In this document: positions 1 to 24,341 of the stretch, piece after piece
Numbering within the stretch: the first letter of the stretch is position 1
Layout: every line of letters begins with the position of its first letter
From: Cyanobacteriota bacterium
GTDB taxonomy: Bacteria; Cyanobacteriota; Cyanobacteriia; Cyanobacteriales; Nostocaceae
Reading direction: 5' to 3'
NCBI GenBank assembly: GCA_046045965.1
Contig: JBJOKS010000045.1
Location: 1 to 24,930, forward strand
Length of the DNA: 24,930 nucleotides
Program-made: the position numbers and the translations under genes
Notes under the pieces: generated by a model
What the model was told of the DNA's origin: nothing
Database searches by the model: none
Seen by the model: only the letters and a program-made list of their open reading frames with translations

Positions 1-18
1 TTTTTTGCTGGTTGTCAT
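1..18 (-). CDS. possible 5' end of a gene leaving the window (MTTSKK...)
   Basis: ATG at 18-16 on minus preceded by purine-rich GAGAG; only 6 codons visible. Confidence 0.25.
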
Positions 19-322
19 GGCTGCTCTCAATTGCTCAATTACTTGTCTAGATTGAGTTTCCCATGTTTTTGACCACTACAAATACCACCCTTGACAATTT
101 CCCTTTTTCCTTAACTTGTCACTAATGGGCTGTACCCCATCTACAGTACCAAGATTGCTAATGATTTCCGTCGCTCACGGTATATAACAACAATCAAGGG
201 CATGAATTTTTATCAAGGTGCTTTATTTGCTTATATCACTGTTGATTCTCAGAATAACTCATCATCCTGGGAGATAATTAATCTCACCTCTTTAAAGCAA
301 GAAATAGAAAATGCTAAATTAT

Positions 323-505
323 TATAGCAATCCTAAATCTTTCATGAGAAATTGCGTAGTTCAAGAAAGATATTTTTAATACCCTATAAAATTTTGTTTG
401 GTGGTTTAAGTGCTATATTTAGCGTAATTCATGGGAAGATTATTAGTTATATAAAACACACAAATTAATACCGTGTTTTCTCACATTTCAATTAGGATTG
501 CTATA
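323..505. mobile_element. MITE with TATAG...CTATA ends (IS630-family-like, non-autonomous)
   Basis: Imperfect terminal inverted repeats TATAGCAATCCTAAAT..TGAGAAA / TTTCTCA..ATTAGGATTGCTATA; related ends at 9876-10032 and 24245-24341; no transposase. Confidence 0.7.
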
Positions 506-652
506 GCTAATTAATTTCTTGGAGGATAGGGTGCGATTAGCAGAAGTTAAACACGCTCATTTAATTAAGGTAAGATGTCTGTAGTTTTTCTAAAATTGCC
601 TTGTGCATTTGTTTAGCTTCTTGACTGGTTTTTTCTTGGGGGATGGAATGAG

Positions 653-681
653 GCGTTAGCGTAGCTTACCATAGGTATCAC
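653..681. repeat. degenerate small dispersed repeat inserted in a HIP1-like site
   Basis: GCGTT + 21-nt AGCGTAGCTTACCATAGGTAT (hairpins AGC-GTA-GCT and TACC-ATA-GGTA) + CAC; same layout as the insertion at 11071-11094. Confidence 0.55.
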
Positions 682-685
682 TATT

Positions 686-1828
686 TCAAACATTTGAATG
701 AACATCTTGAAGCGCCCGGCGTGCTAATTTAACATAAGTTTTAACTGTGGTGTATGGTATTTCTAAATCTTGGGCTATGATTTGTAATGATTCTCCCATT
801 TCTCTTCTTGCTAAAATTGTCGCCCAGGTTGTGGCTATTTTTTCCGTGCGATCGCCTCCTGTGCGTTTCCTTTGTGCTGTGAATATTTCTGTTAGTTGTT
901 CTATGCGTTCTGGTAATAAATTAGTTGTAATTTCTGTAGATATATTTGATGTTGGTTCTATCCATTCTAAGCTAGTTTGCCCTAGTCCAAAGGTGGTTTT
1001 ATGTCCCGTGCCACAATAGGGAGCAAGTTGTAATAAAGCATAAAATAACTGAGTAAATTCGATATTAGCTAAGGCGGTTTTTGCTAACCCTAGAGAAATT
1101 GCCCCTGTAAAACCTGTGACTGAACCCCGTTTACCTGCGGCGACTTTGACAGATTCTAAACTGTGTTTATGAATGATAACGTTTTCATCTATCCATTCTA
1201 AAAAAGCATCTTGTTCTACTGGCATTCCTGAAAAATCATTCCAACGTCTGAGGTAACTATGAAAAAGATTTATGGGAACTGGAAGCGGAAAATGATGTCC
1301 TTTACGGCGAAAACTGGTAGGTGAAATAAAACTCAGATTAATGTTATGATGTTTTTGGGTGGATGATGCTAAAATTTGATTGTAAGTAGTTGGTGGGTTA
1401 ATAATATTTATTTGTTTGATTTGTAATTCGGCATCTCTTAAATTTATGGTTGATGGTAGTTGGGTTAACCATTGATTTAAAAACTCAACTACTGGCTGAG
1501 AAAAAACGTTAACATACCAATGATAGGTATTATTTGCTTGTAATTGCAGTTGTTTACCTGTGGGAACTAATTGACCTTCTAAAGCTGAAATATTAAAGGG
1601 TTTTTCTGATTCACCATCATGTAAATATGCTGAAAGTGTGGGGTTAATTTGGCGTACTTGATCCAAAAACCAAGCATGAAGTCCAATGGTATATTGTGAA
1701 TATAAAGATACGGAAGTAACTGGTTCTAAGTCAAATACTAAACCAATTAATTCGGTATTTTCTGACCATTCCAAAGGTGTGTTTTTTACTGGGTTTTTTC
1801 GTCTGTTAGATACTGCTGCTCTTGGCAT
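686..1828 (-). CDS. cas6: CRISPR-associated endoribonuclease Cas6 with C-terminal HTH extension
   Basis: GLHAWFLD, KPFNIS, FISPTSFR, GFTG and Gly-rich loop GTGHKTTFGLG; ~95 extra residues ending in GESLQIIAQDLEIPYTTVKTYVKLARRAL; adjacent to the array. Confidence 0.93.
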   Translation of the reverse strand: MPRAAVSNRRKNPVKNTPLEWSENTELIGLVFDLEPVTSVSLYSQYTIGLHAWFLDQVRQINPTLSAYLHDGESEKPFNISALEGQLVPTGKQLQLQANNTYHWYVNVFSQPVVEFLNQWLTQLPSTINLRDAELQIKQINIINPPTTYNQILASSTQKHHNINLSFISPTSFRRKGHHFPLPVPINLFHSYLRRWNDFSGMPVEQDAFLEWIDENVIIHKHSLESVKVAAGKRGSVTGFTGAISLGLAKTALANIEFTQLFYALLQLAPYCGTGHKTTFGLGQTSLEWIEPTSNISTEITTNLLPERIEQLTEIFTAQRKRTGGDRTEKIATTWATILARREMGESLQIIAQDLEIPYTTVKTYVKLARRALQDVHSNV

Positions 1829-1865
1829 TTTAGCTATATTCTGTGATGATTATTGATTCTACTCT

Positions 1866-1902
1866 CTTTTAGTCCCCTTGTGGGGATGTATTATGATTGG
1901 GT
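1866..1902 (-). repeat. degenerate terminal CRISPR repeat
   Basis: Minus strand ...CCAATCATAATACATCCCCACAAGGGGACTAAAAG vs consensus GTTTCCAATTACCTAATCCCCGCAAGGGGACTGAAAC; hairpin TCCCC/GGGGA retained. Confidence 0.75.
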
Positions 1903-1922
1903 TTGTGTTGGCGATCGCTCTT

Positions 1923-4905
1923 GTTTTAGTCCCCTTGCGGGGATTAGGTAATTGGAAACCTTCCTAGCCTTGTCGCATCAAACGGAAGTTTCAAGTTTCA
2001 GTCCCCTTGCGGGGATTAGGTAATTGGAAACTGGGACAGCGGGGACAGTGGAATTTCCACTTTCTAAATGTTTCAGTCCCCTTGCGGGGATTAGGTAATT
2101 GGAAACATTCCTCCTATTTCGTTCATCCTTTCCTCGTATTCTCGTTTCAGTCCCCTTGCGGGGATTAGGTAATTGGAAACGTTCCTGGGAATGCCCTGAT
2201 TTTTCTCTAAGTGTTTTTAGGTTTCAGTCCCCTTGCGGGGATTAGGTAATTGGAAACCTCACTGATAGACAGAGAAGCTACTATGAGGTCTCAGGTTTCA
2301 GTCCCCTTGCGGGGATTAGGTAATTGGAAACTATTAAGAATGTGATTGGTAGTAGACCTACTATGGAACTGTTTCAGTCCCCTTGCGGGGATTAGGTAAT
2401 TGGAAACTCCAAGTCTTGCGAGTACCGTTAGGCAGAAGGCTAAAAGTTTCAGTCCCCTTGCGGGGATTAGGTAATTGGAAACCCCTTTTTTGATTTCTCC
2501 CTTCTCTTTTCTTCTGTAGTTTCAGTCCCCTTGCGGGGATTAGGTAATTGGAAACTAGCAGCATTAAACAGTCTTGTGTTAAATAGTTTTGTTTGTTTCA
2601 GTCCCCTTGCGGGGATTAGGTAATTGGAAACGATCTAATTTGTTCCTCGGTGTATTGCCCCTCAAAAGTTTCAGTCCCCTTGCGGGGATTAGGTAATTGG
2701 AAACTTACCCTATCACCTAAAGACCTTCTAATCATCCAAAAAGGGTTTCAGTCCCCTTGCGGGGATTAGGTAATTGGAAACAAAGGTTGCCACTGCCTTT
2801 GCATGGTTCGCCTACAAGTTTCAGTCCCCTTGCGGGGATTAGGTAATTGGAAACGTCGTTGGACCAGTTCCATTAGCTAATGTCACAGTAGTTTCAGTCC
2901 CCTTGCGGGGATTAGGTAATTGGAAACATTCATAGCACCAATGGTACATTTCCAGCAACTCGTGTTTCAGTCCCCTTGCGGGGATTAGGTAATTGGAAAC
3001 AACTGAATCCCAAATATAATAAGCGAAGAGAAAAACGTTTCAGTCCCCTTGCGGGGATTAGGTAATTGGAAACTTTGCAACTTTGGATGGACAGCAAGTA
3101 GAAGTTCCCGATGGGTTTCAGTCCCCTTGCGGGGATTAGGTAATTGGAAACGTGAATCACCTTCTCAAAAGCAAGCTGCGCGATCGGTTTCAGTCCCCTT
3201 GCGGGGATTAGGTAATTGGAAACAAAATATCACCCTTTGTAAAGTTGACTTTTAATTAGGTTTCAGTCCCCTTGCGGGGATTAGGTAATTGGAAACGATA
3301 ACTAATTTCCTTACTAATCAATAATCTTCTGTTTCAGTCCCCTTGCGGGGATTAGGTAATTGGAAACGAGACAAAAGGAACTTTTTTTTGCAATCCATAA
3401 AAGTTTCAGTCCCCTTGCGGGGATTAGGTAATTGGAAACATATTCAGCCTTGCCTTCAGTATATGGGTGCTTGCGGTTTCAGTCCCCTTGCGGGGATTAG
3501 GTAATTGGAAACATAGCTTGCTGGCTACGAATTCCACAAAAATTCATTGTTTCAGTCCCCTTGCGGGGATTAGGTAATTGGAAACCGCCTAACTGACCTC
3601 TAAGCTCTTCGGCAGAAACTTGTTTCAGTCCCCTTGCGGGGATTAGGTAATTGGAAACTCTGGGGTCAATTTGTAAGTTAAGGAGAAGGCTGAATGTTAG
3701 GTTTCAGTCCCCTTGCGGGGATTAGGTAATTGGAAACTCCAAATCCAGGCAGAACAGGGAAGCAGTCAGCAGCGTTTCAGTCCCCTTGCGGGGATTAGGT
3801 AATTGGAAACAAATCGGGGTTCTGTTGCGCCAATTTTCGCACATCAGGTTTCAGTCCCCTTGCGGGGATTAGGTAATTGGAAACCTGATAAATTTGAAGC
3901 TGCTTTTAATAAGTGATGTGGTTTCAGTCCCCTTGCGGGGATTAGGTAATTGGAAACTTATAAGCTCATTCCCGGCAAGTTTACTTAATACTTGTAAGTT
4001 TCAGTCCCCTTGCGGGGATTAGGTAATTGGAAACGTTCCTGCTGGTTTGACTTTGCAGGATTTAGATCGCGTTTCAGTCCCCTTGCGGGGATTAGGTAAT
4101 TGGAAACGATTTTTTTAGCGTCCTCTACAGTAATAGGGTATAGTTTCAGTCCCCTTGCGGGGATTAGGTAATTGGAAACGGAAGAGACAAAAGGAACTTT
4201 TTGCGATCCATAAAAGTTTCAGTCCCCTTGCGGGGATTAGGTAATTGGAAACTTTATCTCTTTTTCTTTAATTTCTCCTGCTTTTGCGTTTCAGTCCCCT
4301 TGCGGGGATTAGGTAATTGGAAACACTTCCTGGGCATAGCTCCCCTTATGCTCCTAGCGCGTTTCAGTCCCCTTGCGGGGATTAGGTAATTGGAAACCTA
4401 CGAATCCCCAAATTTATTGCAAAATCCATATAAGTTTCAGTCCCCTTGCGGGGATTAGGTAATTGGAAACAATTAGCAGGGTTACAGCACCCCGTCGAGC
4501 TCGTTAGTTTCAGTCCCCTTGCGGGGATTAGGTAATTGGAAACGGCATCATGGGACAGTGGGACAGTGGAAAAATTTTGTTTCAGTCCCCTTGCGGGGAT
4601 TAGGTAATTGGAAACCATCGAAACCTCCCAGACTTCCCAACCTTTGCCACGTTTCAGTCCCCTTGCGGGGATTAGGTAATTGGAAACTATCTGTGGAAAT
4701 TTTGCGAATTAAGCCCGGTGAACTGTTTCAGTCCCCTTGCGGGGATTAGGTAATTGGAAACATTTTGCATGGCTTGAATTAATGTTTGACCAATGTGTTT
4801 CAGTCCCCTTGCGGGGATTAGGTAATTGGAAACAATAACCAGGGCTTTTCCCAAGGGAAGTTTTTCATGTTTCAGTCCCCTTGCGGGGATTAGGTAATTG
4901 GAAAC
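1923..4905 (-). CRISPR. CRISPR array, 41 repeats / 40 spacers
   Basis: 37-nt repeat GTTTCCAATTACCTAATCCCCGCAAGGGGACTGAAAC (minus), spacers 34-42 nt; only the 1923 copy carries a substitution. Orientation from the 3' ACTGAAAC handle, the degenerate end at left and the leader at right. Confidence 0.99.
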
Positions 4906-5100
4906 CCCGCCATCTGAAACACAGTCTAGGAGCAGACTGTAGGGGGGATTTTGGCAGACCTCTCAAAAAACCTCATTTCAGGATTCGGGTCAACTGCCAA
5001 CTGAAACTAACAAAACGCTGAAAGTATTTAATTGTCAAGGTTCTGGCGATTTGGCGAATCTCCAGGGTTTTTGACCCCGCTCTAGGTTTGCCAAATTTAT
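4906..5100 (-). promoter_or_regulatory. CRISPR leader
   Basis: Non-coding, abuts the non-degenerate array end; contains related motifs ATTTTGGCAGACCT, ATTTGGCGAATCT and inverted AGGTTTGCCAAAT, typical of cyanobacterial leaders. Confidence 0.8.
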
Positions 5101-5561
5101 CTTTATATAAGAGTAAAATTTAACCAGTAACTTGTCAAGATTTACTGTATTACAAATATTTAAGTGTTAGATTGACCAATTGAGTCAATTATATCTGATA
5201 TAGCCCTATTTCCTTGACAATATCGGCTGTAACTTTCTGTCTTAAATCATAGGGTAAGAGAATTTCTACCTTCGGTCGCCATGCTCGTAAACGCATAGTT
5301 ACATTGTGATCACCATGTCGGTACTGAAGACTGTAGTAAGCATCCTTTGGTGAACGATTTGCCATAACCTTTAATATAATAATTCTGTTTTTTGTTCTGA
5401 ATTAATTACAGAGTTTTTAATCAAGCCTTTCGCTTTTGAGTAGTCAATTAATTTAAAAATTTCATGTCGAAAGGTATCCTGAATGTAGTAGTCATGATAA
5501 TCTAGTTTAAGTGGTAGTAACATCTACATCTATTGAGAGTGAAGGGTATCAAACAGTGGCA

Positions 5562-6431
5562 ATGGAAGTAAAAATTCAAACTCTCACTCCAATCTGGACA
5601 GGCGGTATTGAGGCCGGAAAGTGCGATCGCATTCACGAAACCGGACTGCTTGGTAGTCTGCGTTGGTGGATGGAGGTTCTGGTACGCGGGATGGGGGGTG
5701 TGGTCTGTGATCCTACGGCTGAAAAATCACAAGATCGCAGCAGCCTAGATACTGAAAAATTTCATGCCAAGAAGTATCGTGAATTGCAAAATGAAGTTGA
5801 GCGACGTAAATACTTACGCGATGCGGGACTTTGCGATGTCTCGCAAATTTTTGGCGCGACTGGATGGAAACGTCAGTTTCGGCTGGAAGTCGAAGAAAAA
5901 AATACATCAACTATTCAAATTGAGGATAAATATGCAAAAAGTCGTTCCTTAACGGCAATAAAAGGTAAATTCACTATCAAAATTCAGGGCTTAAACCCAA
6001 CTTTTGATCCACAAATTATTGGTGGTTTAATTCAGTTTATTGCTGATTATTCAACATTAGGAGCGCGTCCTCGAATGGGTTTTGGTGTGATTAAGATTGA
6101 GGGTGATCGCATCCCTATGCAGCCACTTTATAATTGGCTCATTGGTACATCTGGATATAAAAAATATGAAAATTTACCTTCATTAAATAATATTTTAATG
6201 GCAAAAATACAGCCTAAAAATTTAAGTTTTGATGACAAAGGCATAAAGCACGATCTGAGACAACTGTTGAGGACAAATGAAGACAAGCCAGAGGTTAAAA
6301 GCAGTAAACCCATTCTAAAAAAAGATAAAAAGAAGAATCAGTTAGCAGAAGAGAAAAATTCAGTTCCACGAAATCAAAAAGATGCTCAAGTATTTTTACG
6401 TAGCTTATTAGGATTATCAGAGGATATGTAA
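5562..6431 (+). CDS. cmr1: type III RAMP protein Cmr1 (Cas7 group)
   Basis: MEVKIQTLTPIWTGG, ETGLLGSLRWW, SQIFGATG, Gly loop LGARPRMGFG; start moved from GTG 5511 to ATG 5562. Confidence 0.85.
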   Translation: MEVKIQTLTPIWTGGIEAGKCDRIHETGLLGSLRWWMEVLVRGMGGVVCDPTAEKSQDRSSLDTEKFHAKKYRELQNEVERRKYLRDAGLCDVSQIFGATGWKRQFRLEVEEKNTSTIQIEDKYAKSRSLTAIKGKFTIKIQGLNPTFDPQIIGGLIQFIADYSTLGARPRMGFGVIKIEGDRIPMQPLYNWLIGTSGYKKYENLPSLNNILMAKIQPKNLSFDDKGIKHDLRQLLRTNEDKPEVKSSKPILKKDKKKNQLAEEKNSVPRNQKDAQVFLRSLLGLSEDM

Positions 6432-7493
6432 ATGCAATATGAATATTCAGCTACTCAAGACTTTTGGCTGCAAGAAGCTATGTTTGCTAAAGATAAAAAA
6501 AATTATTTACCACAATGGCGAAAGCATTATGAAACAAGCGATCGCAGTCTAGTTGATCAGTTTGATTTTATTCCTAATTCTTCTGATGCTCTCAATAATT
6601 TACCAGCACTCAGTTTCATACTGCGTGTACCGTTCAAACTAAAAAAACCCTATTTGAGTAAAGACGATCGCTCTTTCCATTTACTTGATAATCCAGTACG
6701 GAAAGACAAGGTATTTAAAACTCCTATGGTTTCCTCTACAAGCTGGAAAGGAGCTTTAAGAGCAGCATTATGGCAGTTAGGACATAAAGAAGAAAATGAG
6801 CAAATTATTCGGCTATTTGGTAATGAGCGTGAGCAGGAAGATCATAAAAAACTGAAATCAGGACGGCTCTATTTTTATCCAACTTTCTTTGATAAGATTG
6901 ACAAACAGAAACAGCTAGAAGTAATTAATCCCCATGATCGCAAAAAAGGAACTTCTGCGCGGGGTCCCATTTATTTAGAATGTGTTCCCAAAAATTCTAC
7001 AGGTGAACTTGTTATTTTATATGTCCCTTTTGGGACGGTAGAAAAAAGCCAAGTTATTGAAGATTTGGAACTGGTTGTACAGGGAGTAAAAGAGATGCTC
7101 ACGGTTTATGGTTTTGGAGCAAAGACTAGTAGTGGTTTTGGAATTGTGGAGGATCAACTTGACAGTCAGGGAGAGTTAGCAATTCGGGGTGATATACCAG
7201 AGTTAAAGAAAAAATTAGAATTTCTCAATGATGATGGGACTTTAAAACAAGAGTTTGTCAACAACGATGGAAGTTTTAGAACTGAGTCACAATATAAAAA
7301 ATCCCTTCAAAAACAAAATATTTCACACAACCCGAAACTTTATAAGGAAGCTAAACAATGGTATGAGGAAAATAAACAGAAAATTGGGTCTAGCTCAGAT
7401 TTTATGACAGAAGTTCGTTTCAATAAATTGAGTGAGTTAGGCGATCGCGCCAAGGAAATAGCAGTGCATTTATGTAATGGAGTTCAAGTATGA
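6432..7493 (+). CDS. cmr6: RAMP superfamily protein, Cmr6-like (Cas7 group)
   Basis: SSTSWKGALRAA, RLFG, INPH, GFGAKTSSGFG; position between cmr1 and csx11 matches III-C gene order. Confidence 0.75.
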   Translation: MQYEYSATQDFWLQEAMFAKDKKNYLPQWRKHYETSDRSLVDQFDFIPNSSDALNNLPALSFILRVPFKLKKPYLSKDDRSFHLLDNPVRKDKVFKTPMVSSTSWKGALRAALWQLGHKEENEQIIRLFGNEREQEDHKKLKSGRLYFYPTFFDKIDKQKQLEVINPHDRKKGTSARGPIYLECVPKNSTGELVILYVPFGTVEKSQVIEDLELVVQGVKEMLTVYGFGAKTSSGFGIVEDQLDSQGELAIRGDIPELKKKLEFLNDDGTLKQEFVNNDGSFRTESQYKKSLQKQNISHNPKLYKEAKQWYEENKQKIGSSSDFMTEVRFNKLSELGDRAKEIAVHLCNGVQV

Positions 7494-9613
7494 CTAATAC
7501 TTTCTGGCGACCATCAGATGAACAAAGACGAACAATTTTATTGATGGAAGCTCTTGGATTAATTCATGACTTAGGCAAAATGAGCGATCGCCTTTTGCAA
7601 AAACAAGACCCTTCATTAAACGTGGAATATGGATACAACTTGTTATCTGACCCACGCAATATTGATATTTATTATAATTTCCAAAATATAACTTGTGATC
7701 CCAGTGCAGAATTTGTTACACAAATCTTAGATACAGCTAACAATCAACCTTGTGCATTTGGTGAAATAACTGGTATAAATGACCCTCTTAAAGAAATTGA
7801 ATTTACATGGGATAGTGAACAGTATAATTTTGCTGAATTAATGCCAATTCTAACCAAACCTAAATTGTCGGTAGATCAAAATGCTAACTGGAATGGGGTT
7901 TTGGGTAAATCAATGAAGCCCGGACTTCTCATTGCTTATTTACATGGCATTGCTCACATTGATAAAGAAGGTGATCCAGAAAAGCATAAACAACCCTATA
8001 GTAGTGTATTTCGTGCTACGCCATTTGGTCATGAGGAGCAAGTAGGTACACAGGGAGTTCAAGAGCTAACAAAAACTCTTAATAAATTACCTCTAAACGA
8101 TATTACAAAGATTGCTACTTCTCAAAGATCAGAGTGGCTTGAACAAATGAAGCTATTGATGCAAAGAGGTTTAGCAGATAATCGAAGACCTCATAATGAA
8201 ATATCTCTTTGGGATTGGGGTTATTCAGTAGCTACATTTGCTAAAGCAGCAACTAATTATATCTTTAAAAGTGGTTGGCCATCAAATATCAGGAAATTAC
8301 CTTTTTGTACACTAAGAATCAATTTGAATATTCTTGAATGCTATACACACAATGATAAGATTAGTGATTTGTTAGGAATTAAGCAAGTTATTGATGATGC
8401 TTTCAAAAAAGTAAAAACACTTCTTGAAGAAAATTATGCTTTAGGAAATCAACTTTATCGTGATGAAACAGGTTCTTATTATCTACTACCTAATATTTTT
8501 GATAATAACGAACAGATAGAGTTAAAACAAGAAATTCAATCTCTATTTCCACCAGATTTGAAACCAAAAATATATTTCAGTAATTCATTTACTGCTGATG
8601 CTCTACACCATTTTAAATCAGGAAGTGATAATTCAAATACAGACAGCAAAAATGCTGCAAAAGGAGATGTAAATAAGCTAGTTGCTGAACCAAGACTAGA
8701 AGCGCGAAAAGAAAAGAAAACTACTAATAATAATTTTTATCTTTTTGAGACAGAGTGGAAAGATAATCGCCCTGAAAACTCAGAAACTTGCACAGTTTGT
8801 GGAGTACGGCCTGTTGGTTATCCACTTCAAGGTTCATGTCCTGAAGTAGAGATAACATTAAGTCAGTGGGCAAAACAGAAGAAAGCTCAAGATCGTAAGA
8901 TTTGCCGTGTTTGTTTAGACAGAAGAGGGCGACGATCTGAGCAATGGCTTAAAAATATTGGGCAGGAACATCAACGAAATACAATCTGGACAGACGAAGT
9001 AGCTGATAATAATGGTCGTTTAGCCCTATTTGTTGGAAAACTGGGTTTAGAAGGTTGGCTTGATGGTACATTACTTTCTACTATTCAAGTGACTGATAAT
9101 ATAACTAAAAATCCCTCTCCTGCTCGGTTGTATCGTATTGCTGAAACAGCCCGTGCTTTTTGGCAAAAAGTGACAGATGAATTAATGCCCAACACTGTTG
9201 GTCTGCGTTCATTTCGTTTAGAGTTATCTCCAGATGTTGATGATTTCCCAGATTTAGGAGATTATCAAGCATACGATTTAGATATTGATGGTGTAGTTTT
9301 AAGTGTGGTTTGGGATAAACCCAATAAAAGATTTTTAATAACAGATAACTTGAATTACTGTTCGACTCAATTAGGTATTACTGAGGCTGATATCATTGAA
9401 AAATTGCAAGGAAAAACCTTTCAGCTTTCAGAGCCATCTAGCTTTTTGCAGTCTAGTCGCCCAAAAACAAAAGTTAATGTTCAAACTGTTAAGCAAATTA
9501 ATGGCTACTATCCTTGCATTTCTCTACTATCTGAACCTACTGTTAGCCTAATCCTAGTTCCGGGGAATAAAGCCTTAGAACTAGGACTTACGCACTGTAC
9601 AAATTCCCTATGA
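7490..9613 (+). pseudogene. csx11: Csx11/Cas10-like large subunit (type III-C), 3'-truncated by a MITE-like element
   Basis: N-terminal HD motif IHDLGK, ADNRRPHNEISLWD, CTVC...CRVC Zn finger, KNPSPARLYRI; the last 9 codons (GLTHCTNSL) come from the element starting at ~9581; no cmr4/cmr5/cmr3 follow. Confidence 0.8.
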
Positions 9614-9875: not shown

Positions 9876-10032
9876 TATAGGACTCCTATTTGAGTTATGA
9901 ACTGTTCTTTTTAACTAACCACAGAGACACAGAGAAGCCAGTGCGTTGGGCGGGTTTCCCGACTTGAAGCAACTGGCGCGACACAGAGGTAGAGAAATAA
10001 GAGATGTTCACATTTCATTTAGGATAGCTATA
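9876..10032. mobile_element. TATAG...CTATA MITE carrying a nested hairpin repeat
   Basis: Ends TATAGGACTCCTATTTGAGTTATGAAC / GTTCACATTTTCATTTAGGATAGCTATA; internal GCCAGT...ACTGGC stem (9937-9977) flanked by GACACAGAG direct repeats. Confidence 0.65.
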
Positions 10033-10046
10033 TATTTTACTAATTA

Positions 10047-10649
10047 TCAATTATTTAAACTCTGCCACAAATACCAACAAGCAATGGTGCGGTAAGGTTG
10101 CCATTGTTGGGCGATTTGTTCTAAGGTTTTTTTATTGGGCAAATCATCCAAATTATAAAGATTACGAATAGCAGTACGAATACCCAAGTCATCAACAGGT
10201 AAAATATCCCAACGATGTAATCTGAAAATCAACAACATTTGTACAGTCCAGCGTCCTATCCCTTTGACTACAGTTAAGGATTTAATGATTGTTTCATCGT
10301 CCATTGTTTGCAGTTCATCTATGTTTGGTAATTCTCCAAACCGTTGTGCTAAATCTTTGATATATGTAATTTTAGGACGGGAAATACCCACTGAATGTAA
10401 AATATCATCGGGTGTATTGAGAATATCATTAACTGTTAATGAATTAGGATAAATTTGTAAAAATCTCTGGTGAATAGCTGCTGCTGCTTTCCCTGAAAGT
10501 TGCTGGTAAATGATGGCGCGAGATAAACAATAAAATAAATCTCCGGTTTGTTGTACCTGGTTTAGTCTGCATTCTCCTATCTGCAATATTACATCTGCTA
10601 AAATAGGATCTTGTTTCAGTGTTTTGATGGCAACAGAGTAATTTATCAT
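10047..10649 (-). CDS. alkA: DNA-3-methyladenine glycosylase II (AlkA/HhH-GPD family)
   Basis: IIYQQLSGKAA, HhH VKGIGRWT, LPVDDLGIR, WQPYRTIACWYLW. Confidence 0.9.
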   Translation of the reverse strand: MINYSVAIKTLKQDPILADVILQIGECRLNQVQQTGDLFYCLSRAIIYQQLSGKAAAAIHQRFLQIYPNSLTVNDILNTPDDILHSVGISRPKITYIKDLAQRFGELPNIDELQTMDDETIIKSLTVVKGIGRWTVQMLLIFRLHRWDILPVDDLGIRTAIRNLYNLDDLPNKKTLEQIAQQWQPYRTIACWYLWQSLNN

Positions 10650-10671
10650 TAATTAGCTATTTCCTCAAATT

Positions 10672-11556
10672 TTAAATGCTGATAGTGAGAAAATTAATAA
10701 TTTCATCTAAGAGTAATTGCGGTTCATCAACACGAATTAAATGACCGCTATTTTCAAATATTTTTAAATAGGCGTTAGGAATAGCTTGGGCAATTTCTTC
10801 TGAAAATTCTGGGGGACATATCCAGTCATGTCGTCCGGCAATTACCAGTGTTGGTGAGGTAATTTTATGTAATTCGTTGAGGATATTATAGTTTCTTAAA
10901 AAGCCACTAAAGGCAATGTTAATAGCATCAACTGAGAGGATAGTTTGGTCTGAGTCTGGGGAATTTGTTTTCCGGTTATTGCTTTGGCAATACATTGGAT
11001 TCATGATTTTAAAAAATTGCCGTAGCTGTTCTTCGTTTTCAAAATTACCTGCCCAAAGTTTAGAAGCGATAGCGTAAGCGCTGACTTGTCAGTTCGCTTT
11101 TTGTTCTGAGTTTCCGCGTTGTGCTAAAATTTCTTGAGCGCGTTGTAAAAAACGGGAACTGGCAGTTGTGGCAATTACTATTAAATGAGAAACATTTTGC
11201 GGATATTTGATAGCATAGGACAGGGCAACCATACCCCCATAGGAAGAACCAATTAAAATGATTTTTTCTAACCCCAAATATTGGCGTAATGCTTCCATGT
11301 CCTCAACGTTATTTTCTAGGGTATAGGTTTCTTTTGATCCACGTGCTGACCTTCCCTGACCCCGATGATCAAAATACACCATTTGTAGGTGATGACTGAG
11401 GGGAAAAAAACAAGGTTTATAGCTGGTGTGGTCTACTCCGGGTCCACCATGAATGATGAAAGCAACTGGTTTTTCACGTATTCCCTGTTCTTCAACTGCT
11501 AAACCACAACCATCTATATCAAAATATATTTCTGTATCTCTTATTTTTGCTTTCAT
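10672..11556 (-). pseudogene. proline iminopeptidase-like alpha/beta hydrolase interrupted by an in-frame 24-nt insertion with a stop
   Basis: HGGPG, DHRGQG and GSSYGG in ORF 11089-11556; GRHDWICP and SGH in ORF 10672-11004; same frame; the single TGA lies inside the insertion. Confidence 0.88.
11071..11094. mobile_element. 24-nt small dispersed repeat inserted in HIP1
   Basis: GCGAT|AGCGTAAGCGCTGACTTGTCAGTT|CGC; removal restores GCGATCGC and the reading frame K-A-I-A-S-K-L. Confidence 0.85.
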
Positions 11557-13294: not shown

Positions 13295-13699
13295 TTAAGG
13301 TGCAATTAGCTGTAAGTTAGGAAAATAGGTTCTATATCGCTTTGCATCTCTAGTTAGTAAGGGAATTTGTCGGATGACGGCATGAGCGCCAATATAAAAA
13401 TCTGGTAGAGGGGAACGGCGATCGCCTTTACTCTGCCGATATTGCTGAAATGCTTTACCTGCAAGAAAAGCAGCTTCCCAAGGTAAGGGTTCGCGCTGAA
13501 AGAAGTTTGGGGGGATGACGCTATCAAGTTCGTCTAGTTGGACAAAACCAATAGAGACTTCTGCATAGATGATGGGGTTGATGAGGAGATTTCCTCTACT
13601 TTCACATTCTATGAGGTGCAGGGATGACCATTCAAACCAATTTGGGTCTTCGGTGATGATATCGAGAATAATATTGCTATCAACTAAAACATCAGTCAT
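13295..13699 (-). CDS. vapC: VapC-family PIN domain toxin
   Basis: VLVDSNIILD, IYAEVS, PLPDFYIGAHA, LLTRD; overlaps the upstream AbrB-type gene. Confidence 0.9.
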   Translation of the reverse strand: MTDVLVDSNIILDIITEDPNWFEWSSLHLIECESRGNLLINPIIYAEVSIGFVQLDELDSVIPPNFFQREPLPWEAAFLAGKAFQQYRQSKGDRRSPLPDFYIGAHAVIRQIPLLTRDAKRYRTYFPNLQLIAP

Positions 13700-13922
13700 A
13701 AGTGGAGCGAGTGATTTCCATAATTTCGTCAGTGCTGAGATGGGTAGTTGCTTTTCCTCGCATAAGATTGATTAAAGTTTCCCCTCTGGTGGGACTATTT
13801 TTTTTCTGAAGTTGTAATATATTCCCTATAATTTTTAACTCAACCTCAGTACCCGGTAAAAATCCTAGCTCTTCTTGAATATCCAGTGGGATTGTAATGC
13901 TTCCATCTTGGGTTATTTGCAT
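13692..13922 (-). CDS. AbrB/MazE/SpoVT-family antitoxin
   Basis: MQITQDGSITIPLDIQEELGFLPGTEVEL; AGGAG RBS upstream of ATG 13922. Confidence 0.85.
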   Translation of the reverse strand: MQITQDGSITIPLDIQEELGFLPGTEVELKIIGNILQLQKKNSPTRGETLINLMRGKATTHLSTDEIMEITRSTYD

Positions 13923-13963
13923 TTTTATTACTCCTGATTTAATCCTGTAATTCACTTTCCTGA

Positions 13964-14894: not shown

Positions 14895-14969
14895 TTATCC
14901 CCTCCTAAAGAGGATATAGAATTTCGGGGCTTTTTGTTAAAAATTAAATATTCTCAAGAGTTTATATTT

Positions 14970-17324
14970 ATGTCTCTGCGTGAATACAAACCCGGAACTA
15001 CCTTCCCCGGTGTCATCGGTCGGACAGTTGATAAATCCAGTCCAGCTTGGCCAGAACCTTTACGGGCAAAAGAAGGTACAGCAAACGTCCTATTTATCGT
15101 TTTCGATGATACAGGATTTGGACAATTTGGATGTTACGGAAGTCCCATCAAAACACCCAACCTAGACGCACTAGCCGCTAATGGTTTACGCTACAACAAC
15201 TTACATACAACGGCACTGTGTTCTCCTACCCGTTCTTGTCTGCTGACTGGACGCAATCACCATTCTAACGCCATGTCCTGCATTACAGAAGGGTCTACGG
15301 GTTATCCCGGAGGTAATGGGAATATTCCCTTTGAAAATGGGTTTCTCTCAGAGATATTACTCCAGAAGGGTTATAACACTTATGCGATCGGCAAATGGCA
15401 TTTAACCCCCTCAGACCAACTTTCAGCCGCTGGACCCTATGATCGTTGGCCTCTCGGTCGCGGTTTTGAACGTTTTTATGGTTTTCTAGGTGGAGAAACC
15501 CACCAGTATTATCCAGATTTGGTTTATGATAACCACACCGTCAAGCCGGAAAAGACCCCCGCAGAAGGCTACCATTTAACGGAAGATTTAGCAGACAAAG
15601 CCATTAGCTTTATCGCTGATGCCAAGCAGGTTGCCCCAAATAAGCCTTTCTTCATGTATTTCTGCCCTGGTGCGATGCACGCCCCTCATCATGTCCCCAA
15701 AGAATGGGCTGATGCCTACGCTGGACAGTTTGATGATGGTTGGGAAGCTTACAGGGAAAAGGTTTTTGCCCGTCAGCAGGAAATGGGGATTGTTCCCGCA
15801 GATGCCGAACTTTCTCGCCATGATCCCGATGTCCCTCACTGGGATTCCCTCTCTGCTGCCGAAAAACAGCTTTATGCCCGGATGATGGAAGTATATGCTG
15901 GGTTTTTAACCCATACTGACTACCATATCGGTCGTTTACTCGATTTCCTCAAATCTATCGGTGAGTTCGAGAAGACTGTCATTATGGTGATTTCGGACAA
16001 TGGGGCAAGTTCGGAGGGGGGACCGACTGGTTCAGTAAATGAGAACCTGTTTTTTAACAATGTTCCAGAATCCCTAGAGGAAAATCTCAAAGCATTGGAT
16101 AAACTAGGCAGTGCCGAAACCTTTAACCATTATGCTTGGGGCTGGACTTGGGCAGGGAATACGCCTTTTAGGCGGTGGAAACGGGAAACTTATCGCGGGG
16201 GAATCAGCGACCCTTTAATTGTGCATTGGAGTCAAGGCATTGAAGCAAAAGGAGAAATTCGGACTCAGTACGCTCATGCTATTGACCTTGTGCCGACGGT
16301 GCTGGAATTACTGGAAATTGCCCCACCGACAACGATTAAGGGTGTGACTCAATCTGCCATTGAAGGTGTCAGTTTTGCCCATACTTTTAATCATAGTACC
16401 GCACCTACTAAGCATCTTACCCAGTATTTCGAGATGATGGGACATCGTTCTCTTTACTATGATGGTTGGCGGGCGGTATGTCCTTGGCCGGGTCCGTCAT
16501 TTACAGAAGCGGGGCGGTTTTTTGGTGAGGCGATTTCGGCAGAAACTCTGACGGATTTGGATACTCATCATTGGGAACTGTATCACGTTGCCTCGGATTT
16601 TGCGGAAAATCACAATATTGCGGCTGATAATCGCCCTAAGTTGATTGAGATGATTGCTACTTGGTATGTGGAGGCTGGTAAGTATAATGTATTGCCTGTG
16701 GATGGACGTGGTACGCAACGACTGGCGGAAGAACGCCCGCAAATTGCTGTCAATCGTAGCCGCTATGTTTACTATCCTGATACTCAGGCAATTCCCGCCG
16801 GTAGTGCGGTGAGGGTGTTAAATCGTCCCCACAGTATTACGGCTGATGTGGAGATTCCCACAGGTGGCGCAGAAGGGATATTACTGGCTCATGGGGGTAA
16901 TGATAGTGGCTATTCTTTCTATGTCCAAAATGGCAAACTGCACTGGGTTCATAATTATGTGGGGCGATCATTGTATCATGTTGAATCTGGGTCATCTGTG
17001 CCGGCAGGTCGTCACCAGTTGCGGTTTGAGTTTAAAGTCACGGGTCAACCAGATTTAGCGAAGGGGAAAGGAACGCCAGGACGCGCCCAACTTTATATTG
17101 ATGAGAGATTGGTCGGGCAGATTGATGTGCCTGTAACTACTCCCTTAGCACTAGGTTTGACTAGTGGTGTCACCTGTGGAATTGCTCCTGGTGCGCCTGT
17201 TACACCCGATTATGAGCCGCCTTTTAAGTTTACAGGGAAGATTTACTGTGTGATTGTTGATGTGAGTGGCGATTTGATTCAAGATCGGGAAGCTGAAATG
17301 CGAACTATTATGGCGCGACAGTAG
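14970..17324 (+). CDS. arylsulfatase (Cys-type, large family with C-terminal beta domain)
   Basis: FDDTGFG, CSPTRSCLLTGR (CxPxR), GKWHL, SDNG; ATG 14970 preferred over TTG 14934. Confidence 0.93.
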   Translation: MSLREYKPGTTFPGVIGRTVDKSSPAWPEPLRAKEGTANVLFIVFDDTGFGQFGCYGSPIKTPNLDALAANGLRYNNLHTTALCSPTRSCLLTGRNHHSNAMSCITEGSTGYPGGNGNIPFENGFLSEILLQKGYNTYAIGKWHLTPSDQLSAAGPYDRWPLGRGFERFYGFLGGETHQYYPDLVYDNHTVKPEKTPAEGYHLTEDLADKAISFIADAKQVAPNKPFFMYFCPGAMHAPHHVPKEWADAYAGQFDDGWEAYREKVFARQQEMGIVPADAELSRHDPDVPHWDSLSAAEKQLYARMMEVYAGFLTHTDYHIGRLLDFLKSIGEFEKTVIMVISDNGASSEGGPTGSVNENLFFNNVPESLEENLKALDKLGSAETFNHYAWGWTWAGNTPFRRWKRETYRGGISDPLIVHWSQGIEAKGEIRTQYAHAIDLVPTVLELLEIAPPTTIKGVTQSAIEGVSFAHTFNHSTAPTKHLTQYFEMMGHRSLYYDGWRAVCPWPGPSFTEAGRFFGEAISAETLTDLDTHHWELYHVASDFAENHNIAADNRPKLIEMIATWYVEAGKYNVLPVDGRGTQRLAEERPQIAVNRSRYVYYPDTQAIPAGSAVRVLNRPHSITADVEIPTGGAEGILLAHGGNDSGYSFYVQNGKLHWVHNYVGRSLYHVESGSSVPAGRHQLRFEFKVTGQPDLAKGKGTPGRAQLYIDERLVGQIDVPVTTPLALGLTSGVTCGIAPGAPVTPDYEPPFKFTGKIYCVIVDVSGDLIQDREAEMRTIMARQ

Positions 17325-19399: not shown

Positions 19400-22300
19400 A
19401 TGAAAATCCTTCATGGCACTTGGATACCTAACACAGAAACCAACTTTATTCAGTCAGGTTCATTTTATCTGTGGGTAGAAACGCCTGTACTAAAAAACAA
19501 ACGCAATTCTAAACAACAAATTCATCCTGGACATCTCTCCAAAGATGAATTATTGCAATTTTTAGTTCAGGAATTAGGAATTAAAGAACCATTACCCATA
19601 TTAAAGGAACGCATATCTGCTAAATATTTTGCGCTGCCAACCGCCGATAATCAACCTTTACCCTCACCAGAATTAATTAAATATCTAGAAATAGAAACAC
19701 CGGAAGAATACACAGAATTTCAATATTGGCAAGTAGATTGTTATGAAACTTTAACTTCTATTAAAAGTAATACGCCAGCAATTAATATTATCAAACTACT
19801 CAACGATATTCATTTTTTAGCCATCAATAACCTGAGCGAAATTCAACTCGGTTCAGATTTATTATTTTGGTATCACTATACGCAATCATTTAAGCAAATA
19901 ATTCTCAAAGACCAATATATCCCCACTCTCAAATATCGCCAATTAGAATCTGCTCAAACCAAAAGTAAAACTAAAACTAAAAAACCCATTCCAACTGCAT
20001 TTGAAATTTACGCTGGGTGGGAAATTATTTCTGAACAGTATGAAGCTAATATTCAGAAATATATTGAATATATGCCCTTGATTTGTGTGGCAGGTTCAAC
20101 TGGAAAAAATGAAAATATTGATTTTTTTGATGAAGAAACCCTATTACGCCACTTTTCTGAATCTATTCTCAATAACATAGTTAATCATACACCCTCAACC
20201 GTTGCCTTTGATAAACAAATTGCAGATTCCTTAGTTTACTATTGTTTTTATTCGCAACAGCATAATCCCTGCACAAAGAATGTAACCTTAGAAGAATACA
20301 AACAATGGCAGACATGGAAAAGTAAAATTACTCGCTCCCAATCAGAATTACCTTTTTATCTGTGTTTTCAACTCAATTCCCCTCCTGCTGAACAAATAGA
20401 TAACTGGGAAATGCAGTTTTTGGTTTCTAGTAAACAAGACCCTTCCCTGAAGTTAGCTTTGGCAGATTATTGGCCAATGAGTCCAAAAACAAAAACAGGT
20501 GTACAAAAGCAGTATGGTGAAAACTTTGAAACTAATTTGTTGTTGAATTTAGGATATGCAGCACGGATGTATCCTCAATTATGGCAAGGATTAGAAACAG
20601 ATACTCCTATAGGAATGCAACTTTCATTAGAATCAGCATTTGCATTTTTACAAGAAAGTGCTTGGGTGTTAGAAGATGCAGGTTTTAAAGTAATTGTCCC
20701 TGCTTGGTATACTCCTGCTGGTCGTCGTCGTGCTAAATTGCGACTCAAAGCTTCTGGTAACAATCGTTCTGCAACTAAAGGAGAAAACAAAAGTTATTTT
20801 GGTTTAAATTCTTTGGTGCAGTATGAATATGAATTAGCAATTGGTGAGGAAGTTGTTACTAAACAAGAATGGGAACAATTAATTAATGCTAAAGCTCCCT
20901 TAGTACATTTTCGCGGTCAATGGATGGAATTAGACCGAGATAAAATGCAGCAGTTACTAGAATTTTGGCAATCTCATGGTGAGGAAAAACCAGAGATGTC
21001 TGTCTTGGAATTTCTGCAACGTAATGCTGAATCTGGGGAAGATTGGGATATTGAACATGATGAAATTTTGTCAGATATGATGGCGAAATTACAAGATAAA
21101 AGTAGATTAGAACCAATTTCTGACCAATTAAATCTGCAAGGTAATCTGCGAGAATATCAAAAGCGTGGTGTTGCTTGGTTAGAATATTTGGAACGGTTGG
21201 GTTTAAATGGCTGTTTAGCAGACGATATGGGTTTAGGTAAGTCGGTACAGGTAATTGCTAGACTTGTCCAGGAGAGAGAGTTGCTTCCTGTTGAGGGGGA
21301 AATAGGGAAATCGGAAGATGAGAAAAACAAAAAATCTCAAGAAGACAGAGGAAATAAGAGAAACAAGAAGGATAAAGAAGATAGAGGAAATGGGAGAGAT
21401 GGAGAGAATGTCAACCGTTCTCAAAAATCTGTGTTACCAACATTATTAATTGCACCTACATCTGTGGTTGGTAACTGGCAAAAGGAAATTGCTAAATTTG
21501 CACCTCATCTTCAAAGTATGGTACATCATGGGAGCGATCGCCTACAAACTGTTCCCGAATTCAAAACCGCTTGTCAACAACATGATGTCATCATTACCTC
21601 TTTTACTTTAGCACGCAAAGATGAAAAACTCCTGCAAAGTATCGAGTGGCAAAGAATTGTTTTAGATGAAGCACAAAATATCAAAAATCCTAAAGCTGCA
21701 CAAACCAAAGCTATTCTCAAACTTGCAGCTAAACACCGACTAGCTTTAACAGGAACTCCTGTAGAAAACCGTTTGTTAGATTTATGGTCAATTTTTAATT
21801 TTTTGAATCCTGGTTACTTAGGTAAAGAAGCACAGTTTCGCAAATCTTTTGAAGTCCCCATTCAAAAAGATAACGATAGAATCAAATCTAGCACTCTCAA
21901 AAAATTAGTTGAACCTTTAATTTTACGTCGAGTCAAAACCGACAAATCTATTATTAACGATTTACCAGATAAAGTTGAACAAAAACTTTACACTAATTTG
22001 ACTAAAGAACAAGCATCTTTATATGAAGTAGTCGTTAAAGATGTAGAAGAGAAATTACAAACAGCCGAAGGAATTCAACGCAAAGGTTTAATCCTTGCAA
22101 CTTTGATGAAATTAAAGCAAATTTGTAATCATCCTGCTCAATTTTTACAAGATAACAGCGAATTTTCTACCGAACGTTCTCACAAACTCAGTCGCTTAGT
22201 AGAAATGGTAGATGAAGCTGTTTCTGAAGGTGAAAGTTTGCTAATATTTAGTCAATTTACAGAAGTATGTGAACAAATTGAGAAACACATTAAACACAAT

Positions 22301-22720
22301 TTACATTGTAACACTTACTATCTGCATGGTGGCACAAGTCGCCAACGCCGGGAACAGATGATTACTGAATTTCAAGACCCGGATACAGAAGCATCTGTGT
22401 TTATTTTATCATTAAAAGCAGGTGGTGTAGGGATTACTTTAACTAAAGCTAATCACGTTTTTCATTTTGATAGATGGTGGAATCCAGCAGTTGAAAATCA
22501 AGCCACAGATAGAGCTTTTCGGATTGGACAGCAAAAGAATGTGTTTGTCCATAAATTTGTGGCGATTGGTACTTTAGAAGAGAAAATTGACCAAATGATA
22601 GAAGATAAGAAAAAACTGTCTGCATCTGTGGTTGGCAATGATGAATCTTGGTTAACGGAGTTAGATAATGAGGCATTTAAACAATTAATTGCTTTAAATA
22701 AAAGTGCAATTTTGGAGTAA
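19400..22720 (+). CDS. SNF2-family DEAD/DEAH helicase
   Basis: LREYQ, LADDMGLGKS, LDEAQNIKN, ALTGTPVEN, SLKAGGVG, WWNPAVENQATDRAFRIGQ. Confidence 0.95.
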   Translation: MKILHGTWIPNTETNFIQSGSFYLWVETPVLKNKRNSKQQIHPGHLSKDELLQFLVQELGIKEPLPILKERISAKYFALPTADNQPLPSPELIKYLEIETPEEYTEFQYWQVDCYETLTSIKSNTPAINIIKLLNDIHFLAINNLSEIQLGSDLLFWYHYTQSFKQIILKDQYIPTLKYRQLESAQTKSKTKTKKPIPTAFEIYAGWEIISEQYEANIQKYIEYMPLICVAGSTGKNENIDFFDEETLLRHFSESILNNIVNHTPSTVAFDKQIADSLVYYCFYSQQHNPCTKNVTLEEYKQWQTWKSKITRSQSELPFYLCFQLNSPPAEQIDNWEMQFLVSSKQDPSLKLALADYWPMSPKTKTGVQKQYGENFETNLLLNLGYAARMYPQLWQGLETDTPIGMQLSLESAFAFLQESAWVLEDAGFKVIVPAWYTPAGRRRAKLRLKASGNNRSATKGENKSYFGLNSLVQYEYELAIGEEVVTKQEWEQLINAKAPLVHFRGQWMELDRDKMQQLLEFWQSHGEEKPEMSVLEFLQRNAESGEDWDIEHDEILSDMMAKLQDKSRLEPISDQLNLQGNLREYQKRGVAWLEYLERLGLNGCLADDMGLGKSVQVIARLVQERELLPVEGEIGKSEDEKNKKSQEDRGNKRNKKDKEDRGNGRDGENVNRSQKSVLPTLLIAPTSVVGNWQKEIAKFAPHLQSMVHHGSDRLQTVPEFKTACQQHDVIITSFTLARKDEKLLQSIEWQRIVLDEAQNIKNPKAAQTKAILKLAAKHRLALTGTPVENRLLDLWSIFNFLNPGYLGKEAQFRKSFEVPIQKDNDRIKSSTLKKLVEPLILRRVKTDKSIINDLPDKVEQKLYTNLTKEQASLYEVVVKDVEEKLQTAEGIQRKGLILATLMKLKQICNHPAQFLQDNSEFSTERSHKLSRLVEMVDEAVSEGESLLIFSQFTEVCEQIEKHIKHNLHCNTYYLHGGTSRQRREQMITEFQDPDTEASVFILSLKAGGVGITLTKANHVFHFDRWWNPAVENQATDRAFRIGQQKNVFVHKFVAIGTLEEKIDQMIEDKKKLSASVVGNDESWLTELDNEAFKQLIALNKSAILE

Positions 22721-22836
22721 AATAAGTAGTGGTAAATAAATTGTATATTTAGGAGAGGGAACAGGAAACAGACAAAGAATACAGAGATTTTTGTTTGTTC
22801 TAAAAATGTTAAATTAATTTTATTCAGGTACTTATT

Positions 22837-24244: not shown

Positions 24245-24341
24245 AGCGATCCTACCCCAATCGTGAGAAAGTAAATAAAAATCTTTGTTTTATAAGCATT
24301 TGAGGCTGTTGAACGCTCACGGATCATTTAGGATTGCTATA
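24245..24341. mobile_element. degenerate TATAG...CTATA-family MITE
   Basis: Left AGCGATCCTACCCCAATCGTGAGAAA, right TCATTTAGGATTGCTATA; compare 323-505. Confidence 0.55.

What the first reader, a model, noticed from the sequence alone, without database searches (positions are those of the whole stretch)
686..975. Cas6 fused to a C-terminal sigma70-region-4-like HTH
Seen: ~95 aa continue after the Gly-rich loop GTGHKTTFGLG and end in ILARREMGESLQIIAQDLEIPYTTVKTYVKLARRAL. Known: Cas6 normally ends just after that loop, and the extension pattern matches sigma70 region 4 / LuxR-type HTH domains. Inference: a bifunctional crRNA maturase and DNA-binding regulator that could link crRNA processing to transcription of the array or cas genes.
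Basis: partly seen in the sequence, partly recalled or inferred. Interest (0 to 1): 0.75.

Follow-up and report, generated by a model that had tools for sequence, protein, structure and literature searches.

The report
Known Cas6–HTH fusion, candidate operator found
This cyanobacterial CRISPR RNA-cutting enzyme carries a DNA-binding-type tail that was already described in 2020, but a palindrome left over from a CRISPR repeat sits in the predicted promoter of many related genes and may be the site the tail binds to control its own gene.

Summary
ORF 686-1828 (-) is a 380-aa Cas6 followed by a linker and a conserved four-helix domain (residues 304-379) ending in a helix-turn-helix. It is not new: Reimann et al. 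2020 described the same 70-aa sigma70-region-4-like extension in Anabaena Alr1482, proposed dsDNA binding and called its function elusive. A PADLOC profile also records the fusion. The window protein is 70% identical to a 377-aa Nostocaceae Cas6 that is probably Alr1482. What I add is a candidate target. In 114 of 172 distinct homologous loci, mostly without an array, the palindrome of the CRISPR repeat (TCCCC-N4-GGGGA; here 1873-1886) lies just upstream of cas6. A -10-like hexamer follows it 10-11 nt downstream (100 of 122 elements against 1 of 109 internal repeats). Its arms are kept (2 of 250 changes) while loop, 5' part and handle decay (20-25%). Best reading (0.45): the HTH binds repeat DNA and autorepresses cas6. 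DNA versus RNA recognition is unresolved, and 50 of 172 loci lack the palindrome but keep the domain.

The parts
686..1828 (-). cas6 gene, 380 aa, Alr1482-type Cas6 with C-terminal HTH domain
968..1750 (-). Cas6 core (about residues 27-287), double ferredoxin/RAMP fold
   Evidence: TIGR01877; Foldseek best match T. thermophilus Cas6 4c9d, E 1.1e-17
980..1012 (-). Gly-rich loop, residues 273-283
   Evidence: G273, T274, G275, G281, L282 and G283 invariant in 40 aligned homologs
920..967 (-). variable linker, residues 288-303; much longer in some homologs
   Evidence: conservation 0.44
692..919 (-). C-terminal four-helix domain, residues 304-379; HTH = helices 348-355 and 359-379; T361, K363, Y365, K367 and R370 at 98-100% conservation
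1856..1861 (-). -10-like hexamer TAGAAT of the predicted cas6 promoter (start site not mapped)
   Evidence: TAn[AG]AT 10-11 nt behind the palindrome in 100 of 122 elements against 1 of 109 internal repeats
1873..1886 (-). repeat-derived palindrome TCCCC-ACAA-GGGGA, the core of a decayed last repeat; predicted position about -37 to -24; candidate operator
1923..4905 (-). CRISPR array, 41 repeats of 37 nt; orientation inferred from repeat end and decayed trailer, so cas6 lies at the trailer end
4906..5510 (.). array leader and region between array and cmr1; no perfect palindrome copy
5511..9613 (+). adjacent type III-C-like genes: cmr1, cmr6, cas10c (707 aa)

Best explanation
The protein is an Alr1482-type Cas6. 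Its RAMP core cuts pre-crRNA (shown for Alr1482 in the 2020 paper; inferred here from 70% identity). Its C-terminal HTH domain most likely binds double-stranded DNA (fold and conserved recognition helix shown; binding inferred). I propose that the site is the palindrome of the CRISPR repeat itself, TCCCC-N4-GGGGA. One copy, left from the last repeat of an ancestral array, is kept over the -35 region of the cas6 promoter (conservation and spacing shown; promoter and start site inferred). Free Cas6 would then repress its own gene. The many repeats of dispersed arrays, as DNA or as pre-crRNA, would draw it off, so enzyme supply would follow crRNA load (inferred, untested).
For: (1) Palindrome with at most 1 mismatch 25-125 nt upstream of the start in 114 of 172 distinct loci (at most 2 mismatches: 122). 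The control inside the coding sequence gave 0 of 172 and 1 of 172; shuffles in the first set gave 11 of 11000. (2) 89 of the 122 have no array behind them. (3) In 25 loci with an array, the last repeat differs from the consensus at 2 of 250 arm positions, 20 of 100 loop, 98 of 400 5' and 43 of 175 handle positions. In 71 solo elements the arms carry 1.6-2.0 bits, and the loop has 30 sequences at fixed length. (4) -10-like hexamer at 10-11 nt in 100 of 122 elements against 1 of 109 internal repeats; this would put the palindrome outside the mRNA made from that promoter. No fixed -10 position upstream of it. (5) Of 71 solo elements, the nearest upstream ORF is on the opposite strand in 11 and absent within 1.4 kb in 8, so read-through is not general. 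(6) The element also occurs in lineages at 55-65% protein identity (23 of 49), some with other spacings (7, 8, 13, 19, 22 nt), which fits repression better than phase-dependent activation. (7) 112 of 113 perfect palindromes in the genome lie in or at its three arrays, so the site would be specific. (8) 0 of 12 tail-less cas6 genes in the same loci have it (weak control, these are mostly internal operon genes). (9) Fold matches include operator- and -35-bound HTHs.
Against: No binding or start-site data. 50 of 172 loci lack the palindrome yet keep an intact-looking domain; only 1 of 12 below 55% identity has it, and several Nostoc-level lineages lost the left arm or all of it. I saw no clear covariation with the recognition helix (by eye). 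A palindrome is also the RNA stem that Cas6 recognises. Arm changes do not separate DNA from RNA: C>T on the left in 8 loci, G>A on the right in 5, no compensatory pair. Two handle A's stay at 69 of 71, and 37 of 71 solo elements have a same-strand gene upstream. In the four stand-alone genes with this domain, the -10-like box lies 66-145 nt from the repeat, not 11. Loci are related, so counts overstate independence; the repeat comparison is ungapped; about five of the 2-mismatch hits look like chance. Shmakov et al. (10.1101/2023.03.03.530964, passages) judged type III repeat-like elements to be degraded and non-functional.
Confidence: 0.45

Rival explanations
1. The kept palindrome works as RNA. 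Transcripts reading through from the array or an upstream operon carry the hairpin, the Cas6 core binds or cuts it and so tunes cas6 mRNA, and the HTH has an unrelated job.
For: The element is the Cas6 substrate stem plus part of the handle (Y at +1, AA at +4/+5 conserved). Left-arm C>T changes keep a U-G pair (8 loci). 37 of 71 solo elements have a same-strand upstream gene, and 33 of 122 elements close an array.
Against: A conserved -10-like box lies downstream of the hairpin. The element is kept with opposite-strand or no upstream gene in 19 of 71. Right-arm G>A changes break the stem in 5 loci and none is compensated. The handle decays as fast as the loop in array loci.
Confidence: 0.2
2. 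The HTH binds DNA elsewhere (array leaders, cas operon promoters, or the type I-D system, as Reimann et al. raised), and the palindrome is kept for a host factor or as promoter sequence.
For: Group 2 (type I-D) crRNAs over-accumulate when alr1482 is deleted, and the authors name the domain as one possible cause. The domain persists in 50 of 172 loci without the palindrome.
Against: It does not explain why arms but not loop are kept at a fixed distance from a -10-like box in front of this gene. I made no motif search of leaders. If the HTH binds repeat palindromes, the I-D effect could follow from the best explanation too.
Confidence: 0.2
3. The domain mimics sigma region 4 and docks Cas6 on RNA polymerase (or another protein) for co-transcriptional processing, rather than reading DNA.
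For: The nearest profiles and many fold matches are sigma region 4 domains. That region 4 binds the polymerase flap is recalled knowledge.
Against: The most conserved residues include T361, K363, Y365, K367 and R370 of the recognition helix, as expected for DNA contact. Matches to repressors and response regulators score the same within 1 Z unit. The domain also occurs on proteins with no RNase.
Confidence: 0.1
4. The tail is a non-functional passenger and the upstream repeat a neutral relic of array loss.
For: Most cyanobacterial and other Cas6 proteins work without it (for example 290-aa Alr1566). Type III solo repeats were judged degraded in a broad survey.
Against: The tail is as conserved as the core (0.82 against 0.78). 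Arms are about 25-fold better kept than the rest of the same repeat.
Confidence: 0.05

Closest known systems
Alr1482, type III-D Cas6 of Anabaena sp. PCC 7120 (Reimann et al., bioRxiv 10.1101/2020.04.14.041012)
   Same: Same architecture: about 377-380 aa with a 70-aa C-terminal domain resembling sigma70 domain 4 and repressors, conserved in the whole clade, dsDNA binding proposed. The window protein is 265/378 (70%) identical to P0257, a 377-aa Nostocaceae Cas6 with accession BAB77848.1. That P0257 is Alr1482 is inferred from its length and a recalled accession series.
   Different: Here it sits at the trailer of an array beside III-C-like genes. The parts of the paper I read name no binding site and do not mention an upstream repeat palindrome.
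PADLOC profile PDLC01151 'HTH' (two HTH domains; C-terminal domain often fused to Cas6)
   Same: The window tail matches profile positions 258-329 of 330 at E 2.4e-23.
   Different: The profile is built on stand-alone proteins with an N-terminal Xre/KilA-N/BstA-like region (P0218, P0223, P0201); the window protein has only the last domain.
Cbp1 of Sulfolobales (10.1101/2023.03.24.534125, abstract only)
   Same: An HTH protein that binds CRISPR arrays as DNA and shapes array transcription; this is what the proposed mechanism works like.
   Different: Archaeal, stand-alone, three HTHs, recruits Cren7, no RNase. No homology was tested or claimed.
CRISPR repeat-like regulatory RNAs (CreR/crlRNA; 10.1101/2023.03.03.530964, passages)
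   Same: Degenerate repeats near cas genes used for autoregulation.
   Different: Those act as guide RNAs for type I or V effectors with a spacer match and PAM. Here the repeat remnant overlaps the predicted promoter itself, and the systems are mostly type III or orphan.

Membership tests
Cas6 endoribonucleases | Family profile above curated cut-off | tested here: met
   TIGR01877 103.6 bits against 58.65; PF10040 75.9 against 25
Cas6 endoribonucleases | Double ferredoxin/RAMP fold with Gly-rich loop | tested here: met
   AlphaFold model and Foldseek match to 4c9d, E 1.1e-17, TM-score 0.80 by target; loop residues invariant
Cas6 endoribonucleases | Cleavage of cognate repeat RNA | not testable with these tools
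   Shown for Alr1482 in the paper, not for this protein
Alr1482 clade (Cas6 plus 70-aa tail) | Full-length similarity and conserved tail | tested here: met
   70% identity over 378 columns to P0257 including the tail; identification of P0257 as Alr1482 is inferred
Sigma70 region 4 (PF08281) | Score above gathering threshold | tested here: inconclusive
   25.0 bits against 25.7 for the tail; some homologs pass, e.g. P0140 at 29.3
Sigma70 region 4 (PF08281) | HTH fold like region 4 | tested here: inconclusive
   Z 6.5-7.3 to sigma region 4 chains, tied with DesR, DeoR and an archaeal factor; no Foldseek match at E <= 0.001
Sigma70 factors | Region 2 in the same protein | tested here: not met
   No region 2 match at E <= 1; the N-terminal part is Cas6
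Sigma70 region 4 (PF08281) | Binds -35 DNA and the RNA polymerase flap | not testable with these tools
   Needs biochemistry
LuxR/GerE HTH (PF00196) | Score above gathering threshold | tested here: not met
   15.5 bits against 23.5
Cbp1-type repeat-binding proteins | Stand-alone protein with three HTH repeats | tested here: not met
   One HTH fused to Cas6; works-like comparison only
Cbp1-type repeat-binding proteins | Binds CRISPR repeat DNA | not testable with these tools
   Indirect support from the conserved palindrome
CreR/crlRNA regulatory mini-arrays | Spacer-like guide with partial match and PAM in a cas promoter | not tested
   No target search was run; a second repeat relic 40-43 nt upstream was seen in 7 of 23 loci examined

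The most novel reading that the evidence does not exclude
One protein reads the CRISPR repeat twice: as an RNA hairpin through its Cas6 core and as a dsDNA palindrome through its HTH. A fossil last repeat has become the operator of cas6, and dispersed orphan arrays titrate the repressor, so crRNA maturation capacity tracks the number of repeats in the genome. The same HTH module on BstA/KilA-N-like proteins beside cas6 could tie a putative defence protein into this circuit.
Probability: 0.35. Interest if true: 0.8.

Novelty: already known. Interest (0 to 1): 0.45.

Why it matters
The fusion itself is published and common (219 of 389 genomes of the family), so as stated the finding is not new. 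Its function was left open in 2020. A 14-bp candidate operator with a predicted promoter makes that question testable with one gel shift and one reporter. If it holds, it would be a Cas6 acting as a transcription factor on repeat DNA, a bacterial parallel to archaeal Cbp1. It would also explain how one often-orphan cas6 serves many scattered arrays, and it would be a counter-example to the view that solo repeats near type III systems are debris.

Tried and rejected
Homodimer prediction of residues 294-380: no verdict (score 0.05, mark 0.42); it is no evidence either way. Foldseek of the tail alone gave no match at E <= 0.001. The generic promoter scan did not list the 1856-1861 site, since it needs a -35 hexamer; it found 10 sites against 7.2 expected. 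My first idea that arm changes fall on a single mirror pair and so prove a DNA site was wrong: a recount showed two inner pairs and no discrimination. Helical-phase (activator) spacing: only 1 lineage at 22 nt, others at 7, 8, 13 and 19; rejected. Covariation of recognition helix with palindrome loss: not seen by eye. The full-length stand-alone family was not found with query P0180 in 401 phylum genomes; it was found in 2 of 401 order genomes. Rfam: nothing at gathering score in window 1-5600. Earlier scan findings: three look-ups returned nothing. Papers not held: the RNA Biology version of Reimann et al. and Hou et al. 2019.

Full report
Observation. The window holds a 380-aa ORF at 686-1828 on the minus strand. 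It passes the Cas6 cut-offs of NCBIfam and Pfam, and its model matches solved Cas6 structures (4c9d, E 1.1e-17). After the Gly-rich loop (residues 273-283) come a variable linker and four helices (304-319, 326-343, 348-355, 359-379). The last two form a helix-turn-helix that scores 25.0 bits on Pfam Sigma70_r4_2 (gathering 25.7) and 15.5 on GerE (23.5). Folded alone it matches sigma region 4, DesR, DeoR, KorA and Mor-type HTHs at Z 5.9-7.5; Foldseek gave nothing at E <= 0.001. So it is an HTH of this broad class, without a proven assignment to sigma or LuxR. It is conserved: the best 120 of 1347 homologs are all 373-386 aa, and in 166 aligned homologs the tail (0.82) is as conserved as the core (0.78), with T361, K363, Y365, K367 and R370 at 98-100%.

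It is known. PADLOC profile PDLC01151 is described as 'two HTH domains ... the C-terminal domain often fused to Cas6' and matches residues 303-374 at E 2.4e-23. Reimann et al. (bioRxiv 10.1101/2020.04.14.041012; I read parts 1, 3, 4 and 5 of 5 plus searched passages; figures and tables are images; supplements closed) report that the 377-aa type III-D Cas6 Alr1482 has an extra 70-aa domain similar by HHpred to sigma70 domain 4 and to repressors. They say it is present in all homologs of the clade, suggest dsDNA binding, call the function elusive, and raise it as a possible cause of the dampening of type I-D crRNAs. The window protein is 70% identical over its length to P0257, a 377-aa Nostocaceae Cas6 with accession BAB77848.1. 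I take P0257 to be Alr1482 from its length and a recalled accession series; no call names it so.

Distribution and context. The tail was found in 67 of 401 genomes sampled from the phylum and the Cas6 in 219 of 389 genomes of the window's family. Of 80 named loci, 78 had a full gene. Their neighbours within up to 10 kb were III-D genes in 24, III-A in 9, a III-B-like Cas10 in 3, I-D in 4, I-A-like in 4, cas1/2/4 in 8, and none of these in 37 (16 of them with full flanks). There is thus no single-subtype linkage, and the gene is often an orphan, which implies its own promoter. In the window it lies at the trailer end of a 41-repeat array, with cmr1, cmr6 and cas10c on the far side.

The upstream element. 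Of 261 loci examined, 7 were dropped (4 no start, 2 no N-terminal match, 1 short flank), and 254 collapsed to 172 distinct upstream regions. These come from the named set, 49 phylum-level loci, 2 stand-alone loci, and 129 loci of the family search, whose listing left out 86 matches, so the sample leans to closer relatives. The repeat palindrome TCCCC-N4-GGGGA lies 25-125 nt before the start with at most 1 mismatch in 114 of 172 and at most 2 in 122; the coding-sequence control gave 0 and 1 of 172. By identity to the window protein the counts (at most 1 mismatch) are 39 of 41 (75% or more), 51 of 70, 23 of 49 and 1 of 12 (under 55%). 89 of the 122 have no array behind them. A TAn[AG]AT hexamer follows at 10 or 11 nt in 100 of 122, against 1 of 109 internal repeats of the own genome. 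If that is the -10 box, the palindrome covers about -37 to -24. In 25 loci with an array, the last repeat departs from the consensus at 2 of 250 arm, 20 of 100 loop, 98 of 400 5' and 43 of 175 handle positions (ungapped, related loci). The window shows this: 13 of 16 5' bases changed, arms intact.

Mechanism. A selected palindrome with a free 4-nt spacer over the -35 region of the gene for an HTH protein reads most simply as an operator for that protein. I put 0.45 on autorepression through repeat DNA, with titration by arrays as an inferred consequence. Shown: fold, conservation, element, spacing. Inferred: promoter, binding, repression, titration. Against it: 50 of 172 loci keep the domain without the palindrome. 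The same palindrome is the RNA stem of the Cas6 substrate, and arm substitutions do not discriminate (8 loci C>T left, 5 loci G>A right, none compensated). Of 71 solo elements, 37 have a same-strand upstream ORF, 11 an opposite one, 8 none within 1.4 kb, and 15 had too little flank. Shmakov et al. (passages) considered type III mini-arrays degraded and non-functional. Rivals: RNA-level control (0.2), another DNA target (0.2), sigma mimicry toward RNA polymerase (0.1), vestige (0.05).

The domain on other proteins. A search of 1.84 billion cluster representatives gave 75 hits. Besides Cas6 fusions and fragments, several carry an N-terminal KilA-N or Xre-like region. This is the family of PDLC01151, with a weak BstA match at the N-terminus (E 3e-6 to 5e-15). 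It was found in 2 of 401 genomes of the order (G500, G624), two copies each, all beside a Cas6-HTH gene and each 149-234 nt behind a repeat or array end. Their -10-like boxes lie 66-145 nt from the repeat, so they support an association with repeats but not the promoter geometry.

Literature limits. Eight searches found no paper that tests the domain or describes the upstream palindrome. From them I read passages of PMC12102369 and PMC12669027 (nothing on this domain) and the abstract of the Cbp1 preprint; the rest I saw as listings only. The journal version of Reimann et al., its supplements and Hou et al. 2019 were not available and could mention the element.

Verdict. Real, conserved and already described; function still open. 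Interest 0.45, carried by the candidate operator rather than by the fusion.

Noticed in passing
L156:10122-11222 and 15558-16709; L157:7923-9002 and 10101-11204: Stand-alone proteins with a KilA-N/Xre/BstA-like N-terminus and the same C-terminal HTH domain, two per locus, beside cas6-HTH in type III-A-like loci, each behind a repeat or array end. Possibly a defence protein tied to the CRISPR locus.
   Followed up: partly
L156:10035-10124 and 15471-15560; L157:7833-7925 and 10012-10103: The four stand-alone genes share an approximately 70-nt 5' leader that folds into a stem with 2 compensated pairs among 4 sequences; no Rfam match other than weak CRISPR-DR21 hits at nearby repeats.
   Followed up: partly
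L020, L029, L044, L048, L053, L059, L289 (40-43 nt upstream of the proximal palindrome): A second repeat relic forms a two-repeat mini-array in 7 of 23 loci examined; no guide target was sought.
   Followed up: partly
window 5511-9613: The III-C-like module has only cmr1, cmr6 and a 707-aa cas10c (below the Csx11 cut-off) before unrelated genes; it may be truncated or split.
   Followed up: no
G000:C6:164904-171511 and G000:C66:4335-5569: Two more arrays with the same palindrome (52 and 18 copies). The C6 array begins its leader with the same 16 bases as the window array and lies near a second Cas6 without the tail.
   Followed up: partly
window 3368-3402 and 4180-4215; 2032-2069 and 4544-4579: Two pairs of near-duplicate spacers, suggesting repeated acquisition from related elements.
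   Followed up: no
window 323-351, 477-505, 10008-10032, 24316-24341: A short dispersed repeat of about 25 nt, forming an inverted pair around 352-476 downstream of cas6.
   Followed up: no
L257, L213, L101, L196, L025: Broken copies of the gene (frameshifts or stops; in L257 and L213 the recognition helix is interrupted) that still carry the upstream palindrome.
   Followed up: partly
window 13295-13955, 14934-17324, 19400-23676: ORFs that look like a PIN-toxin/antitoxin pair, a sulfatase and an SNF2 helicase with a SWIM-finger partner (labels recalled from the translations, not tested).
   Followed up: no
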